A stretch of 59,659 nt of DNA, the filler included, from Pirum gemmata (taxonomy: Eukaryota), in NCBI GenBank assembly GCA_002812295.1. It is 10 parts of 10 records of this genome, joined end to end, with 100 filler letters (N's around TTAATTAATTAA, not from the genome) between each part and the next. Parts side by side here need not be neighbours in the genome. Positions count along the whole stretch, not along the records: positions 42,948 to 48,400 come from PDIN01000510.1; 9 more parts are not named here. One strand, written 5' to 3'. Below are positions 38,521 through 51,818 of the stretch, one piece after another. The notes under the pieces are model-generated. The model saw nothing but the letters and a program-made list of their open reading frames with translations, was not told the origin of the DNA and did not search any database. The position numbers were made by a program, and so were the translations under genes. Numbering within the stretch: the first letter of the stretch is position 1; every line of letters begins with the position of its first letter.

Positions 38521-38567
38521 CTAACCCTCTAAAACCCTAACCCTAACCCTAACCCTAACCCTAACCC
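38521..38567 (-). repeat. Interstitial (CCCTAA)n
   Basis: Perfect CCCTAA units. Confidence 0.9.
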
Positions 38568-40568: not shown

Positions 40569-40985
40569 ATGATTGGATTTACACTGTCATGTGAGCCTCG
40601 CAATATTAGCGTGGCATCAATATTACAAAAACCCTTATTACACCAGCAATTACAACATCAAAAACAACTACAACATAGATTAAAGAATCTAATGTCACTA
40701 AAACAAACACCAATAACACCAGCAGCAGTAACAACTATAACCACAGCTAGACCACCAACGACAGCATCATCACCAACAATAGAAACAACAACAGCAATAA
40801 CAACAACAATCGCACCACTATCACCAACACCACCATCAATACCATCACAACCATCACTATCACCACCTGCAACACAAGTATTAGAACCAGTAACAGCAAA
40901 ATTAGGGACATTGACATCATCATTAGCATCATCATCGTCATCCCCATCACCTCCGTCGTCGTCATCCCCATCACCTCCGTCGTCG

Positions 40986-41020
<35 letters not shown>

Positions 41021-42122
41021 TTCACCATCATTAGTATCAACATCGGCAGTATCGATAACTACAACAACTACAACAACTACAACAAGTGCAACAATTCCAA
41101 CAATTGCAACAAGTGCAACAAGTGCAACAAGCACAGCAGCAACATTAATAGCAACACCAACGACAACGGCAACATTAGCAGCAACAATTTTTCCATTTTC
41201 AGTACCATCTCCAGATTCAACCACCAAATCATCAAACAATTTCAAACAATCTTGTAAGTCTTGTAAGTCTTCCTCCGAATTACATAATTCCAGTCAAAAA
41301 TCATCATCCAAACAACTTCGTAAGTCTTTCTCATCAGGAAAAAGGGTAGGGTTAGATAATAACAAAAGCAACACTTATATTAATAGTAATGAAAATAAGC
41401 CAGAAACATTAACAACCTTAAAAACATCGGCAACATCATTGGAAAATGTAGACTCAACAAGTTCTTATATCGAGTTGGCAGAGCCAGTTTGTTCTCTTTC
41501 ATCTTTTTCAAAACAAAAAGGACGTTGTGCTAGTCCACCTAATAGTCCGCCAAGCACTGCTACTATCAAACGATCCAAAAGTTTAAAGGGAAAATATAAA
41601 ATAATATTAGGTAAAGGTAACAGCCATCGTAAGAATTATAAAAAGGATAACATTAGTAATGATAACATTAATGATATTGATAACGGTAGAAACGTTAAAA
41701 GTAATAGTGGTGTAAATATTCGAACTCTTTCTTTGTGTGATAGCAATATCTTAAACCAAGTAATCGACCCACCAAGACCTTGTTCGATGACTTTACCCAG
41801 ATATGTTTCTTTCGAAGACGTGAATAATTATATGAGGGAAGAACAGGAAGAAACACAAGACTGTCAAGAACAGGCCCAGGAGCAGTTTAGTCATAAAGAA
41901 GAACACCAACATCAACTAGAACCTAAGCATGAAATTGAACATGAACATTCACAAGAACATGAACATAAACATAAACATGGATATGTACAAGGACAAGGAC
42001 AAGGACAAGGACAAGAAGAATATTATAATCAACAAAAATTCGAAGGTGAACCAAAACCTTTCGTGGATCTGGAAGAAAGAATGTTTCGTAGTTTGTTAGC
42101 AACATTTGATACTTTGGTTTAA
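40569..42122 (+). CDS. Ser/Thr/Pro-rich disordered hypothetical protein, 517 aa
   Basis: Long ORF, partly low-complexity, with non-repetitive stretches and an ordered-looking C-terminus (PFVDLEERMFRSLLATFDTLV). Confidence 0.5.
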
Positions 42123-42847: not shown

Positions 42848-42947
42848 NNNNNNNNNNNNNNNNNNNNNNNNNNNNNNNNNNNNNNNNNNNNTTAATTAAT
42901 TAANNNNNNNNNNNNNNNNNNNNNNNNNNNNNNNNNNNNNNNNNNNN
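42848..42947. other. Artificial scaffold linker
   Basis: 44N-TTAATTAATTAA-44N. Confidence 0.95.
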
Positions 42948-44356: not shown

Positions 44357-46114
44357 TTATACATCCACATTTAAAGCATTGGTGGATTCATACACACCGC
44401 TTTCAAATAATGGGTTTTGATCACTTGGGTTGGTAATTTCATCAAAACTACCATTTGCCGTTTTAGTACTCGCAGATTGTTTCCAAAAGTAAGCGCCCGC
44501 CAAAGCAGCTGCCCCTAATACTGCTGCACCTGCTGCGGCTCCACCTGCAATAGCTGCAACATTAACCCCATCATCTTCGTTCGTAACAGGTACAGGACAC
44601 GGAACTGTACAGTTAGAGACTTCCTCGCCTTCGGGACATATACTAGTTGAGGAACCTTCGATTATTAAACGAGTGCGCAATTGTTCTCCTTCACCACATG
44701 TGCCATTAATAACTGCACAACTTGACCATTCACCCCATTCATTACTTACACAAGGTTCGCATACAATATTACAGTCCTGTCTTTGTTCATTACCAGGACA
44801 TTCTTCAGGAAAATGACCTTGTTCAAGAATATTTCTTTCACGTTTTTGTTCACCATTACCACAATCAGCATTATTAGACAACAAACAGACTGACCATTCG
44901 GCCCACTCCGTCATTGTACACGGAATACAAGGAGAGTCACAAGTCTGAGTTTCAGCAACAGGGGGACATTCTTCAGGTTTGGATCCTACTTCCTTGATTG
45001 TTCTTTCTCTTATTTGTGTACCATTGCCACAAATTTCGTTTGGCACACACTGGGTCCATTCCGACCAAGCTGAAACACTACAAGGAACACAAGGTTTTTC
45101 GCATGGTTCGGCTTCCGTTAAATCAGGGCATTCATCAGGATAAGAACCAGTTTCCAAAATTGATCTTTCTTTTTTTCTTGTTCCACTACCACAAACATCA
45201 TCAGTTTTACATTCACTCCATTGACTCCAACCACTTACAGAACAAGGAATGCACTCGATGTTACAATCTTTTTCTTCATCCAAAGCAGGGCACTCTTTTC
45301 CATTATTTTCTTGTTCAATAGTAATTGTTCTACTTCTTTTTTGTGTACCGCTACCGCAAACTTGTCCTGTTTGTAGCCCACAAGTACTCCAAGTAGACCA
45401 TTGTGTAACACCACAGTTAATGGCACATATTTTGTTACTGATACCTTCAATTTGTTCAAAAATAGAGTCAAAATCATCAGAATAAAAAATATTATCATTT
45501 GAGCCAGTTATTTCCCGAAGTTGATTTAAATCAACATTGCCAATCGCTAATGCAAGAATTTCATAATCATGGTTTCTTCTGAGATTTTTACCTACATCCA
45601 CAGCGTTATCAGTCGCGGCACCGTCGGTTAAAATTATCAATACTTTTGGAACACTTTGCCTGCTAGGAACTCTGTTCCCTTTACTAAAAACGTCTTTATG
45701 AACTTTTTCCATTGCTTCTCCTAACTCTGTTCCTTGGTATAAGTCATCTTCATTATATCTAATTGAATTAAGTTCTGCCGTTAATTTTGATTTTACGTAC
45801 GATTCGTCCTGAGTGAATTTGCTTTCAATTTTTGTTTTAGAATTGAACGAAGTAAAAGCAATATTGGTTTGTTCTTTCCCAATAGTTAAGCCATCCATAA
45901 CGATGCTAACAAACTCTTTCATGGTAGTAAAACGGTCATTAGCTAAGTTAATATCCCTCTTACCAGAGCCAGGCTTCATAGATATACTTCCACTTTTGTC
46001 AAATATAAAATTTACATCAGCAACCAAGTCACATTCATCCGTTACTTGCGCGCCGACTGTCATAATATAGGCCATGCACAACACAGCAATTATAGATTCT
46101 AAAAATGAAACCAT
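44357..46114 (-). CDS. Type I membrane adhesin: signal peptide, vWA (MIDAS), 5x TSP1, TM, NPLF tail; 585 aa
   Basis: DKSGS...GT...LTDG MIDAS; five CxxxxWxxWxxC...CGxG.xRxR repeats; Gly/Ala-rich TM; tail DQNPLFESGVYESTNAL. Confidence 0.9.
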   Translation of the reverse strand: MVSFLESIIAVLCMAYIMTVGAQVTDECDLVADVNFIFDKSGSISMKPGSGKRDINLANDRFTTMKEFVSIVMDGLTIGKEQTNIAFTSFNSKTKIESKFTQDESYVKSKLTAELNSIRYNEDDLYQGTELGEAMEKVHKDVFSKGNRVPSRQSVPKVLIILTDGAATDNAVDVGKNLRRNHDYEILALAIGNVDLNQLREITGSNDNIFYSDDFDSIFEQIEGISNKICAINCGVTQWSTWSTCGLQTGQVCGSGTQKRSRTITIEQENNGKECPALDEEKDCNIECIPCSVSGWSQWSECKTDDVCGSGTRKKERSILETGSYPDECPDLTEAEPCEKPCVPCSVSAWSEWTQCVPNEICGNGTQIRERTIKEVGSKPEECPPVAETQTCDSPCIPCTMTEWAEWSVCLLSNNADCGNGEQKRERNILEQGHFPEECPGNEQRQDCNIVCEPCVSNEWGEWSSCAVINGTCGEGEQLRTRLIIEGSSTSICPEGEEVSNCTVPCPVPVTNEDDGVNVAAIAGGAAAGAAVLGAAALAGAYFWKQSASTKTANGSFDEITNPSDQNPLFESGVYESTNALNVDV

Positions 46115-46589: not shown

Positions 46590-47710
46590 ATTGTAATAAC
46601 AAAACCAATTTCAAGACTTAGTACTATTCCTTTGAAAGAAACCTAATTTAATCCTATATATATAATTATATTAATAATATATATTAATATAATAATTATA
46701 TCTAATCACAATTTTTACCCTAACCCTTACACTAATTTATAACTATAACCCTAATCCTAATTACCCTAACCCTTACATTAATTTACAACTATAAAGTTAC
46801 TATGACTCTAATCCTAACATTAACCTTAACATTACCCTAATACCAATTAAATCCCTAACTCTAACAGCCCAATACCCTAACAGACAAATTACAATATAAT
46901 TTAATTATTTATATTAAAATTATATAATGTTGTAGTATTGTAGCTACGTATATATTGAACAATAATATGTACATAAATATATAATTATACAATAGATTAT
47001 AAATTATTATAATATCGATTGTAATAACAAAACCAATTTCACGTATCATTCCTTTGAAAGAACCCTAATTCAATCCTATATCTAATCATAATTTATTACC
47101 CTAACTCTTGCGCTAATTTATAACTACAACCCTAATCCGAATTACTATAACGCTAACACTAACATTGACAAATTACAATGTCGTATATTGAACAAAAATA
47201 TATACATAAATATATAATTATACAATAGATTATAAATTATTATAATATCGATTGTAATAACAAAACCAATTTCACGTATCATTCCTTTGAAAGAACCCTA
47301 ATTCAATCCTATATCTAATCATAATTTATTACCCTAACTCTTGCGCTAATTTATAACTACAACCCTAATCCGAATTACCCTAACCCTTACACTAATTTAT
47401 AACTATAACGCTAACACTAACATTGACAAATTACAATGTCGTATATTGAACAAAAATATATACATAAATAACAAAACCAATTTCACGTATCATTCCTTTG
47501 AAAGAACCTTAATTTAATCCAATTTATTACCCTAACCCTTGCGCTAATTTATAACTATAACCCTAATTCTAATTATCCTAACCCTTACACTAATTTATAA
47601 CTATAACCCTAATCCTAACATTGACAAAATATAATGTCATTTAATTTTTTATATATAAAATACTGTAGCATTGTAGCTACGTATATATTGAACAAAAATA
47701 TATACATATA
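46590..47710. repeat. Complex minisatellite (four related units) seeded with CCCTAA
   Basis: AACAAAACCAATTTC...ATTCCTTTGAAAGAA recurs near 46598, 47026, 47259 and 47470 with TACCCTAACC subrepeats. Confidence 0.85.
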
Positions 47711-48269
47711 TTATATAGTAGATTATAAAAATTAAAACTATAATTTGCTTATAAAAAAAAGAAAAAAAAAAAAAAACTTTAAAAGACACTCTTAGACCCA
47801 TTTTACCTCGTTTTGATTTTCTTTTTTCTTTTCTCTTTCAAGTTTATCAGCCATTTGTTAAAAATAAAAGAGTAAACCCAATAAATAATCATTATTGACT
47901 GCTTATAATAATATACTGCTTATATTGATATATTCCCTTAAATAGTTGTTTTATATTTTAAAATAATTTTTTATTGGTAAACATAATTGTTATATTATAA
48001 TATATTTCCTTAAATACTCGTTAATTCTTTTAAAAAAGTTTTTTATTGCTAAATAAAAATTGTTTTTTTTAAAAAAAAAGAATTCTGCCGTTATTTCGGG
48101 ATAGCATCATTTACTATAGCTAACTATATAATAAACATTCTCATAGACATTCTTTATAGAATAAACATCATTTTCACTATGCGTAAGGACTCGTATGGGT
48201 GAATATAAACCAATATTTGTTATGTTTAGAAGAAGTTTTATTATTATATTATTAATATTATTATAAATA

Positions 48270-48400
48270 ACCCTAACCCCAATTCTAATAACCCTAACCC
48301 TAATAATACACTATAATACTAACCCTTTACCCAAACCTTTACCCTAACCCTGACCCTACCCTAATCCCAACCCTAACCCTAACCTAACCCTAACCCTAAC
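48270..48400 (-). repeat. Degenerate (CCCTAA)n at scaffold end
   Basis: CCCTAA variants running into the linker. Confidence 0.85.
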
Positions 48401-48500
48401 NNNNNNNNNNNNNNNNNNNNNNNNNNNNNNNNNNNNNNNNNNNNTTAATTAATTAANNNNNNNNNNNNNNNNNNNNNNNNNNNNNNNNNNNNNNNNNNNN
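48401..48500. other. Artificial scaffold linker
   Basis: 44N-TTAATTAATTAA-44N. Confidence 0.95.
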
Positions 48501-48650
48501 AATAATAATAAAAATAACAATAATTAAAATAATAATGGCAAAAATAACAACAATGATAACAATAATATAATAGTAACTTATTATTATACACAGAGTAGAT
48601 TTAAATATTAATACTACATTTTCATTTTGCTTTTTAACAAGTATTCTTAC

Positions 48651-49737
48651 CAAGGAAACTTTCTTCTTTCAAAAAACGCGCCCAGTATATATTCAGTATG
48701 TATTCCTTTGACATCGAATTTTCAGTAGAACCGCTTAAAATAATTGGAGCTCCTTCGTGTCCAAGTGTATTGATGCTGTTTTCTATTATCTTCATATACA
48801 TTTCATGGGTAGGTTTGTTTTTCATGTAACCAAAAAAAAAATTGGTATTTTCTTTATAATCATAGTCAATGTGGTCTGATTTAAAGCTAGACAATGCATA
48901 TAAACATATATTCGTATTAAATTCCTGTTCACCATTGATAACTACTACGAGCTTGCGACAAAGAGTATTAAATAAAGGAGTTGGTTTAAAGGAAGGAGAA
49001 GAAGTGTATTCTTGGCAAAAGTCTAAAATTCGTTTCAGTATGCCTTCATGAATAAAGGAGTTTTCGACTAACTCAACCAAATACAGGAAATCTTTTAATA
49101 ATAGAGCATCAGATACTTCTTGGTGTAATATTTCTTCAGGTAAAGCTGTTTTACTCTTGTGGTATGATTTAACAAAGCAACGTGTCAAATCCAATCTTGA
49201 AGCCTTAAAGTAGAATTTTTTTTAGAAAAATAGTGATCAAAGAAGGTTTTCCCTTGTTGTTGTTGTTGAAGTAATGAAAAAATAACAACCACAATTATAA
49301 ACACAGCCATAGTCATAATCAAAAATAAGAAACAATAAGAAACAATAATGTTAACCACAATGATAATCATAATGTCATTAACGTTAAAAATAATGTTAAA
49401 AATAATGAACACTAAGTTTACTAATATCAGTAAAAACAACAATGAAAAACACACAAAATAGCACAAGTAAAGATCCCACTCCTTATCTAAAAACCACAAA
49501 TATATATTTGTATATATAAAGGAGAAGCCAAAAAAAACTTACGTTTCGCAAAAAATGGTAAAATTCTAATTCGATTTTTCTAGAAAAAACAATTCCATTT
49601 TTATGTAAAAGAAGAAAGTTTTCAATAAAACCCATCAAGTCAGTTTGACTTCTGGAGGTAGACTGAATAGTAGAACGCAAATACTCTTCAAAAATAGCAC
49701 TGTATTGATTTGGATTTATCTTAAGTTTACGAATAAT
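48651..49737 (-). CDS. Two exons (49737-49543, 49203-48651) of an unidentified helical protein
   Basis: TAG|IIRKLKINP...HFLRN|GTAAGT joins AAG|ASRLDLTRCF... in phase 0; the second exon ends at a |GTAAG donor. Confidence 0.6.
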
Positions 49738-50030: not shown

Positions 50031-51818
50031 ATGAAATTTACCTCAGCATGCTTACTATCGGCTTTTTTTTTAGGTCATAATGGTGTTAGTGCCATGAATA
50101 CCTATCAACAAGATGCTGCAAATTGTAATTTAATTGCTGATATTGTCTATCTTTTTGACCAGTCCGGTAGTATTGGTTGGGATAAAAATAACAATAATGT
50201 ACTAAACTTAGGACAAGAACGTATGTTAGACATGCAAGAATTTGTTCAATTCGTCAATGATGAAATTAGTATTGGCGCTAAACAATCCCACGCTGCCTTT
50301 GCAGAGTTCAACGTGGGTTACACTCAGCGTACTGATTTTAGGGGACCTGGAGCTTACAGTAAAGCAACATTAACAGAAGAATTATTTAAAATGGAATATA
50401 CCACAGCAGAAAATAAACCAAATATGAGAACACATCTAGGGGGCGCTTTAAGGCAAATCGACTATGGCGTATTTAAAACTGGGCGAAAAGGTGTACCAAA
50501 AATTATTGTCACTCTAACTGATGGTGATGCTAATGATGAAGATCCTAATGATTATGTCACTAAAGTTGCACCCAAATTACGTGCCGAAGGGTATACTATT
50601 TTAGCTGTGGCTATTGGTAAAGTTAAACAACAGGGTTTAATGGATCTAACTGGTAACTCTAAAAACATCTTTAAGGTTGGTAATTTCAAAGAATTGAAAC
50701 ACAAAATTCAACAATTGTCCAAGAGAATTTGCGAAACACCTCCTCCGCAAAAAGAACAAGATGATAGTTGTGATTTAATTGCTGATGTTGCTTATTTGTT
50801 TGACCAAAGTGGCAGTATCGGTTGGGATCAAAATGGTCAAAACAACTTAAAATTAGGTCAAGCGAGAGTGAAGGAAATGCTAATGTTTGTTAATAAGGTG
50901 AACAAAGAATTAAGTGTGAGCAATGATCAAGCACACATCGCTTTTTCTGAATTTAACACCGAGTACACGCCAATTGCCAGCTTTTCATCCGACGCTACTA
51001 AGGTAAAAACTAACTTGAACAAGTTGGAATATACGGAAAGGGAAAATCAGCCTAACATGAGAACCTTTTTGGGTACGGCTTTGAAGAAAATGGACAGTGG
51101 CTTATTTAAGAGTGCCAGAGCAGGGGTACCAAAAATCATCGTTACCTTAACTGATGGTGATGCTAATGACGAAAAATTTGGTGACCCTCAAAATGCTGTT
51201 TCTATAGTTGCTCCAAAATTGCGTGAAGATGGTTACATTATTCTGGCTGTGGCCATTGGAAATATTAAAGAACAAGGTTTATTAGAGCTGACTGGCGATC
51301 CTTCTAATATATTTAAAGTTAGCGACTTTTCTCAATTGGAAAGTAGAATTCAAGATTTATCCAAGAAACTTTGCAGTCTTAATTGTGAAACATCAGAATG
51401 GGCAGAATGGTCAACTTGTGAGTTACCTTCGGATAATTCCAACAACGCAAACAATACTTGCGGTATGGGTTCCCGAAGTACCTCCCGAGTTGTTACAAAA
51501 GAATCTGCCCACAACGGTTTGAAATGTCCCGCGTTAGATAAAACAGAAGAATGCGAAATCCCTTGTGCCCCCCCACCACCTGTAGAACCACCTGTAGCTG
51601 AACAAAACCCGCCGAGCTCTAACGCAGGTGCCATTGCTGGTGGGGTTATTGGTGGCTTAGCTGCTTTAGCTGGTATCGGTGCTGCGGCGTATATGTATAA
51701 CCGAAATGTTGCTAATCAAAGTCCAGACTTTGAAAATATCAAAATTGAACATCCTTCTGATAACAACCCTCTGTTTCAAAACGGAATGCAAAGTCACAGT
51801 AATCCTATTGCACAGTAA
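50031..51818 (+). CDS. Type I membrane adhesin: signal peptide, 2x vWA (MIDAS), TSP1, Pro-rich stalk, TM, NPLF tail; 595 aa
   Basis: Two DQSGS...RT...LTDG domains; CETSEWAEWSTC...CGMGSRSTSR TSP1; TM AGAIAGGVIGGLAALAGIGAAAY; tail DNNPLFQNGMQSHSNPIAQ. Confidence 0.9.
   Translation: MKFTSACLLSAFFLGHNGVSAMNTYQQDAANCNLIADIVYLFDQSGSIGWDKNNNNVLNLGQERMLDMQEFVQFVNDEISIGAKQSHAAFAEFNVGYTQRTDFRGPGAYSKATLTEELFKMEYTTAENKPNMRTHLGGALRQIDYGVFKTGRKGVPKIIVTLTDGDANDEDPNDYVTKVAPKLRAEGYTILAVAIGKVKQQGLMDLTGNSKNIFKVGNFKELKHKIQQLSKRICETPPPQKEQDDSCDLIADVAYLFDQSGSIGWDQNGQNNLKLGQARVKEMLMFVNKVNKELSVSNDQAHIAFSEFNTEYTPIASFSSDATKVKTNLNKLEYTERENQPNMRTFLGTALKKMDSGLFKSARAGVPKIIVTLTDGDANDEKFGDPQNAVSIVAPKLREDGYIILAVAIGNIKEQGLLELTGDPSNIFKVSDFSQLESRIQDLSKKLCSLNCETSEWAEWSTCELPSDNSNNANNTCGMGSRSTSRVVTKESAHNGLKCPALDKTEECEIPCAPPPPVEPPVAEQNPPSSNAGAIAGGVIGGLAALAGIGAAAYMYNRNVANQSPDFENIKIEHPSDNNPLFQNGMQSHSNPIAQ

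What the first reader, a model, noticed from the sequence alone, without database searches (positions are those of the whole stretch)
44357..46114. Second family member: vWA + 5 TSP1 (MIC2-like) with the same PSD(Q/N)NPLF-x8-N tail
Seen: a different domain count from the 50031 gene but the same CDLVADV..FDxSGSI vWA start, IAGG-containing Gly/Ala TM and PSDxNPLF tail motif; both genes are intronless. Finding two members among ten short scaffolds suggests an expanded, domain-shuffled family with a conserved cytoplasmic coupling motif (inference). The two genes sit on opposite sides of an artificial linker, so clustering is unproven.
Basis: partly seen in the sequence, partly recalled or inferred. 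Interest (0 to 1): 0.8.

Follow-up and report, generated by a model that had tools for sequence, protein, structure and literature searches.

The report
Integrin-tailed adhesin family, animal relative
A single-celled relative of animals has a family of membrane proteins that join the kind of sticky outer domains malaria parasites use to a short inner tail resembling that of animal integrins, so they likely grip surfaces and are predicted to anchor to the cell skeleton through talin without being integrins.

Summary
46114..44357(-) encodes signal peptide, vWA with intact MIDAS, five spondin-type TSP1 repeats, a Gly/Ala helix and a tail with NPLF-x8-N; 50031-51818 is a paralogue. The host is the ichthyosporean Pirum gemmata, not an apicomplexan. 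A profile search found four more Pirum paralogues and one Abeoforma homologue with shuffled vWA/TSP1 counts. All 7 carry NPL[FY] 43-47 residues after the helix start, 6 of 7 the x8-N; PSD is kept in only 3 of 7. 'MIC2-like' fits the ectodomain only: the TRAP tail tryptophan is absent in 7 of 7 and the vWA shows no clear preference for MIC2/TRAP. The tail instead resembles integrin beta tails (Pfam Integrin_b_cyt in 2 members, E about 0.02, below cut-off; same spacing as beta2). Best reading (0.55): a lineage-specific, non-integrin adhesion receptor that couples to actin through talin, working like Dictyostelium SibA. Against it: the talin-contact Trp and the distal aromatic are missing, and talin in Pirum is unchecked. 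Main rival: a sorting signal. Intronlessness and the neighbourhood of the two genes carry no information. New variant of a known kind.

The parts
44357..46114 (-). Gene of the finding (P0001, 585 aa): type I membrane protein SP-vWA-5xTSP1-TM-tail
46049..46114 (-). Predicted signal peptide (about residues 1-22)
   Evidence: hydrophobic N-terminus; cleavage site read by eye
45425..46033 (-). vWA domain C28-C230 with complete MIDAS: D39-S41-S43 (45986-46000), T129, D164
   Evidence: all five residues invariant in 7 members
44597..45415 (-). Five spondin-type TSP1 repeats (residues 234-506), 32-50% identical to each other
44486..44560 (-). Gly/Ala-rich transmembrane helix (519-543) with a GxxxG (GAAAG)
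   Evidence: hydropathy
44378..44416 (-). Cytoplasmic NPLF-x8-N motif (N567-F570, N579) in a 42-residue tail with no C-terminal Trp
50031..51818 (+). Paralogue P0002 (595 aa): SP-2xvWA-TSP1-TM(AGGVIGG)-tail; an EukProt gene model
51765..51803 (+). NPLF-x8-N motif of the paralogue; weak Pfam Integrin_b_cyt match
48401..48500 (.). Artificial scaffold linker between the two genes (another at 42848-42947)

Best explanation
This gene belongs to a Pirum/Abeoforma (ichthyosporean) family of single-pass membrane proteins with vWA and TSP1 domains outside and a conserved NPL[FY]-x8-N tail inside; they likely work as non-integrin adhesion receptors whose tail is predicted to bind the talin head and so link a surface ligand to actin, as Dictyostelium SibA does. 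Steps: (1) shown: architecture, family, tail conservation, host lineage; (2) inferred from intact MIDAS residues: metal-dependent binding of an acidic ligand (host gut surface, substrate or own wall; ligand unknown); (3) inferred: 1-10 TSP1 repeats act as a stalk of variable reach; (4) inferred from motif layout: the proximal NPL[FY] binds a FERM F3 (PTB-like) domain, most likely talin; (5) speculative: the Gly/Ala helix, close to the TRAP rhomboid motif in 2 of 7 members, allows shedding to release the grip.
For: NPL[FY] in the last 45 residues of 5 of 5 hits whose vWA alone scores 140-317 bits, against 4 of 144 other hits (vWA at most 73 bits); x8-N in 4 of 5 against 0 of 144; joint shuffle probability 2e-10. 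N567-P568-L569 are invariant although members are 28-43% identical outside one duplicated vWA. Distance helix start to NPL is 43-47 in 7 of 7. Pfam Integrin_b_cyt is the only family hit by the bare P0002 tail (E 0.025) and also hits P0159 (E 0.023), both at profile positions about 25-42 of 44. Beta2 integrin uses NPLF for talin, then a TTT stretch and NPKF (PMC9564206); F754, T758-760 and F766 give the same 12-residue offset, and P0159 has TTT at the same +4..+6 place; P0239 has a full distal NxxY. SibA (vWA, Gly-rich helix, NPxY) binds talin and bears force without integrins. A related ichthyosporean, Creolimax, has a nearly complete adhesome. Stand-alone PTB domains are scarce in ichthyosporeans, none found in Pirum or Abeoforma RNA data, which narrows the likely reader to FERM proteins. 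MIDAS complete in 10 of 10 family vWA domains.
Against: No binding or localisation data. P0001's own tail gives no Pfam integrin match, nor do those of P0124, P0138, P0172 and P0239 (2 of 7 match, both under the 23.4-bit cut-off), and tail searches of the PDB found no integrin tail. The Trp before NPLF that beta2 needs for talin (W747) is absent in 7 of 7. The distal motif lacks its aromatic in 5 of the 6 members that have the N, and the Abeoforma protein ends before it. NPxY-type motifs bind many PTB proteins, not only talin. Talin was not looked up in Pirum (no genome held; none of its rows in the supplements searched). The passages seen describe amoebae for Abeoforma and Creolimax, not for Pirum. 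The search profile included the tail, so members without one may have fallen below the 150 rows shown.
Confidence: 0.55

Rival explanations
1. The tail is a trafficking signal: NPL[FY] is read by an endocytic or recycling adaptor (Dab/ARH/Numb-type PTB, or an SNX17-type FERM; these names partly recalled), and the proteins are ligand-capture or wall-remodelling receptors that cycle through endosomes rather than bear force.
For: NPxY/F motifs bind Numb, Dab1/2, EPS8, tensin and Dok as well as talin (PMC4030831). The talin-contact Trp and the distal aromatic are missing.
Against: Few stand-alone PTB proteins in ichthyosporeans, none seen in Pirum or Abeoforma RNA data, which may be incomplete. 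No aromatic residue two places before NPL in 7 of 7, which the LDL-receptor-type FxNPxY signal needs (recalled). The conserved second Asn and Ser/Thr-rich linker follow the integrin layout.
Confidence: 0.25
2. The ectodomain is the product: a vWA/TSP1 glue or wall protein shed by a rhomboid protease, and the tail only routes it.
For: P0002 (AGGVIGG) and P0138 (AGGVVGG) are close to the TRAP rhomboid motif AGGIIGG. The best solved vWA relative per domain is the mussel byssus protein PTMP1.
Against: The motif is in only 2 of 7 members and not in P0001. Tail position and sequence are tightly conserved. Gly/Ala helix starts of this type also weakly match unrelated proteins.
Confidence: 0.1
3. A true TRAP/MIC2 relative, gained from an apicomplexan sharing the invertebrate gut (or a contaminant), with the tail later replaced.
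For: Same domain order; one continuous vWA-TSP1 alignment with MIC2 (E 1.5e-7); best Atlas cluster is TRAP (0.90, 159 shared features, under the 170 typical of same-family hits).
Against: Family profile scores MIC2 50.7, integrin alpha-X 50.2, PvTRAP 39.4 bits and PTMP1 147 over two domains. The fold search ranks ANTXR2 and PTMP1 above MIC2 (low-confidence model). No subterminal Trp. Present in two genera and diverged to about 30% identity; GC and GC3 match neighbouring host genes, which argues against contamination. No tree with apicomplexan sequences could be built.
Confidence: 0.08

Closest known systems
Dictyostelium Sib proteins (SibA-E)
   Same: Type I membrane protein, extracellular vWA, glycine-rich helix with GxxxG, NPxY/F tail, small paralogue family, not an integrin
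   Different: TSP1 stalk instead of bacterial-type R1-R4 repeats; one full NPx[FY] plus a mostly degenerate second motif; holozoan host, whereas Sib was reported only in dictyostelids; talin binding not shown here
Apicomplexan TRAP/MIC2 family
   Same: Signal peptide, MIDAS vWA followed directly by TSP1 repeats, single Gly/Ala helix, short tail; rhomboid-like motif in 2 of 7 members
   Different: No subterminal Trp; NPL[FY]-x8-N instead; ichthyosporean host; vWA shows no clear preference for TRAP/MIC2
Integrin beta subunits (beta2 in particular)
   Same: NPLF, Ser/Thr-rich linker and second Asn 12 residues on; weak Pfam Integrin_b_cyt match in 2 of 7; helix start weakly like beta2 (E 0.4-1.3, not significant)
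   Different: No beta-I/PSI/EGF ectodomain, no HDRKE alpha-contact motif, no upstream Trp, distal aromatic mostly lost
Entamoeba lectin and Acanthamoeba mannose-binding protein (proposed talin receptors)
   Same: Non-integrin surface receptors with an integrin-like tail (PMC12686525 discussion)
   Different: Lectin ectodomains; amoebozoan hosts

Membership tests
TRAP/MIC2 | Signal peptide, vWA and/or TSP1 ectodomain, single helix, short tail | tested here: met
   definition
TRAP/MIC2 | Subterminal tryptophan in the tail | tested here: not met
   0 Trp in the last 40 residues in 7 of 7; feature from PMC6307320
TRAP/MIC2 | Rhomboid motif (AGGIIGG type) in the helix | tested here: inconclusive
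   P0001 has AGGAAAG; near matches in P0002 and P0138 only; cleavage untested
TRAP/MIC2 | Apicomplexan host with micronemes and glideosome | tested here: not met
   Host is Pirum gemmata
TRAP/MIC2 | vWA descends from the TRAP/MIC2 vWA | tested here: inconclusive
   No score preference; no apicomplexan row identified in the tree
Integrin beta | beta-I domain with ADMIDAS/SyMBS, PSI and cysteine-rich EGF stalk | tested here: not met
   Pfam finds VWA and TSP1 domains, no integrin ectodomain family; definition
Integrin beta | Membrane-proximal NPxY/F | tested here: met
   7 of 7
Integrin beta | Distal NxxY/F 12 residues on | tested here: inconclusive
   Asn in 6 of 7, full NxxY in 1 of 7
Integrin beta | LLxxxHDRKE alpha-contact motif | tested here: not met
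   absent by inspection of the seven tails; motif
Sib | vWA + glycine-rich GxxxG helix + NPxY/F tail | tested here: met
Sib | Two NPxY motifs | tested here: not met
   second motif is NALN here; none of 7 has a second NPx[FY]
Sib | Bacterial-type R1-R4 repeats; dictyostelid host | tested here: not met
   none by Pfam; holozoan host
Sib | Tail binds talin | not testable with these tools

The most novel reading that the evidence does not exclude
Ichthyosporeans built a third, independent talin-coupled grip next to integrins and Sib: a TRAP-like vWA/TSP1 head on an integrin-beta-type tail, released by rhomboid cleavage. It would be a hybrid of the apicomplexan attach-and-shed design and the animal talin clutch, in a lineage that also has true integrins.
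Probability: 0.25. Interest if true: 0.8.

Novelty: new variant of a known kind. Interest (0 to 1): 0.58.

Why it matters
A 2025 study showed that talin carries force through the non-integrin receptor SibA and asked for more single-celled species to test convergence (PMC12686525). Known or proposed examples are amoebozoan. This family gives concrete candidates in Holozoa, in a culturable organism, with a short tail that can be tested at once by pull-down or chimera. It also shows that the vWA+TSP1+Gly/Ala-helix layout is not a marker of apicomplexan gliding, and that tail and head of such receptors can be mixed.

Tried and rejected
No whole genome held, so no tblastn count of paralogues and no talin or rhomboid check. 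Word-index homologue searches were insensitive: one search found only P0002 and missed 5 members later found in its length range; one search found 2 of the 6 known members in range, so neither says anything about absence in other lineages. The representative search showed 150 of 523 hits at 1e-30, mostly TSP1- or vWA-repeat proteins. No RNA holder listed; X2 is only guessed to be RNA, so expression is not claimed; X1, a possible source, showed no piece over the gene body. Atlas search with the helix and tail: best 0.78, uninformative. PDB searches with tails: nothing significant. Model of P0002 245-595: mean pLDDT 53, vWA fold only trustworthy in outline; a second model of P0001 had not finished when I stopped; VIA-align not run. 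No complex prediction: no talin sequence at hand. Intronless-as-transfer signal rejected. Gene clustering rejected as unprovable: linker artefact. Earlier findings: five look-ups, nothing shown.

Full report
Observation. The frame 46114..44357(-) is open for 585 residues. Pfam gives one VWA and five TSP1_spondin stretches; the 50031-51818(+) gene has two VWA and one TSP1. They are 36% identical over vWA+TSP1. Both have a hydrophobic N-terminus, one Gly/Ala helix near the end and a 40-42 residue tail with PSDxNPLF-x8-N, 23 residues from the helix. The tail similarity was not reached in 20,000 shuffles. Nine identical N-linkers cut the window into ten scaffolds, one between the two genes, so their neighbourhood is an artefact. 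Contigs of run X2 match 44397-46076 in three pieces with no differences or joints.

Host. The ammonium transporter at 9088-10689 matches EukProt Pgem_evm1s13819 at 95%, differing only in the C-terminal gene model; P0002 is itself an EukProt protein, while the exact P0001 sequence is not in the collection. Pgem is Pirum gemmata, Ichthyophonida, a unicellular relative of animals isolated from invertebrate guts (title of a reference seen). Its published assembly is AT-rich, fragmented and incomplete, with 8,389 introns in 21,835 gene models, so single-exon genes are ordinary. GC (0.39) and GC3 (0.25-0.29) of the two genes are in the range of the neighbouring genes.

Family. A profile of the window's domains against 1.84 billion representatives (best 150 of 523 hits at 1e-30 shown) gave five further proteins whose vWA alone scores 140-317 bits, against at most 73 for the other 144 rows. 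They are Pirum P0124 (three vWA-TSP1 units plus one TSP1), P0138, P0159, P0239 (TSP1-like repeats before the vWA) and Abeoforma whisleri P0172 (vWA plus 10 TSP1). Pirum P0246 is a probably partial model with half a vWA, 17 TSP1 stretches and no helix. Contigs in runs X1/X2 show two more genes with the same helix start and different in-frame flanks (read by eye); these flanks match no stored protein, and their ectodomains and tails are unseen. The ten family vWA domains form one side of a 100/98 branch among 46 rows (bootstrap not fully settled; only the best domain of each non-family protein was kept). The 11 of 36 outside rows that I named are all animal; this reflects ranking by repeats and is no evidence of origin. 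All ten domains keep DxSxS, T and D of the MIDAS. Range beyond Pirum and Abeoforma is open: the word-index searches missed known members.

Tail. All 7 full members carry NPL[FY] 43-47 residues after the helix start; 6 of 7 have Asn 12 residues on; PSD is in 3 of 7. Among the 144 other rows 4 have NPx[FY] near the end and none the x8-N. The search profile contained the tail, which may favour tailed members, but the five were ranked here by vWA score alone. No member has a Trp in its last 40 residues, the TRAP hallmark (PMC6307320 passages). Pfam's Integrin_b_cyt matches the tails of P0002 (E 0.025) and P0159 (E 0.023), under the cut-off, and not those of the other five. In beta2 integrin NPLF is the talin site, followed by TTT and NPKF (PMC9564206 passages); F754 (PMC9266208 passage) and T758-760/F766 (PMC2119009, abstract start in a listing) give the same 12-residue offset; assigning those Phe numbers to the two motifs is my inference. 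P0159 has TTT at the same place and P0239 a full distal NxxY. Against: W747, also needed for talin, has no counterpart, and the distal aromatic is mostly lost.

Ectodomain origin. MIC2 aligns across the vWA-TSP1 junction and the Atlas's best cluster is TRAP (0.90), but its next cluster with the same two domains is eukaryotic with a diatom record. The family profile scores MIC2 50.7, integrin alpha-X 50.2, PvTRAP 39.4 and PTMP1 147 over two domains, and the fold search with a low-confidence model puts ANTXR2 and PTMP1 ahead of MIC2. P0002 and P0138 have helices close to the TRAP rhomboid motif AGGIIGG (PMC3406075 passages); P0001 does not. So the resemblance to MIC2 is architectural; transfer is not supported and not excluded.

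Mechanism. Most likely (0.55) a non-integrin adhesion receptor: the MIDAS vWA grips a ligand, TSP1 repeats set the reach, and NPL[FY] binds the talin head and so actin. The working model is SibA, which has a vWA, a glycine-rich helix and NPxY motifs, binds talin and bears force (PMC9197732 and PMC9453864 passages; PMC12686525 sections 10 and 12). Creolimax has a nearly complete adhesome, up-regulated in amoebae (PMC4739763 passages), and stand-alone PTB proteins are rare in the group (PMC4342544 passages). Talin in Pirum itself, binding, localisation and expression are untested. Rivals: sorting signal (0.25), shed glue (0.10), TRAP relative by transfer (0.08).

Membership and novelty. It is not a TRAP, not an integrin beta and not a Sib (definitions: bioRxiv 2020.04.29.069435 passages; PMC9250747 section 17); it likely works like Sib. 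Searches listed no paper describing such proteins in ichthyosporeans; the library lacks most subscription journals, PMC12716839 (listed) was not read, and the bioRxiv supplements on integrin-like proteins could not be seen and may bear on this. PMC11286789, PMC4030831 and PMC11187247 were seen as passages only.

Unexplained. With about nine members in an 84-Mb assembly, a second member in a 60-kb window would be expected under once in a hundred (my arithmetic). The family may be much larger than found, or long genes are enriched on the longer scaffolds.

Verdict: real, new variant of a known kind, interest 0.58.

Noticed in passing
window 17240-18685 (+): Secreted-type 481-aa protein with His-Gly after the signal peptide; its first 209 residues hit PDB 8s71/8s6s (E 3e-4, 4e-4) and 6z5y 'Lytic Polysaccharide Monooxygenase' (E 0.002). 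Looks like an oomycete AA17-type LPMO (family label recalled) in an ichthyosporean, followed by a Gln-rich linker; no Pfam family passes.
   Followed up: partly
window 25879-31124 (-): Non-LTR retroelement: 726-aa ORF1 and an ORF2 with endonuclease and reverse transcriptase, cut by a scaffold end.
   Followed up: partly
window 9088-10689 (-): Ammonium transporter; after two Pgem proteins the best hits (about 40%) are Amt and Amt-PII fusions, the named ones bacterial. Possible bacterial origin, untested.
   Followed up: no
window 46700-47620, 48268-48400 and elsewhere: Degenerate TAACCC/TTAGGG telomere-like tracts and a dispersed repeat downstream in coordinates of the gene's 5' end; similar tracts at 1519-1596, 19455-19503, 38522-38567.
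   Followed up: no
window 48634-49221 (-): 195-codon open frame without ATG start next to the paralogue, protein-like composition, no Pfam match; possibly an exon or transposon fragment.
   Followed up: partly
P0199 (unnamed Logan protein): 1786-aa protein with 21 TSP1 repeats, a helix and an NPLY tail but no vWA: another TSP1 receptor with an NPxY tail outside this family.
   Followed up: no
window 4289-5017 (+), 5253-5747 (-), 40569-42122 (+): ORFs with no Pfam match; the first looks like a glycosyltransferase-type fragment by eye only.
   Followed up: no
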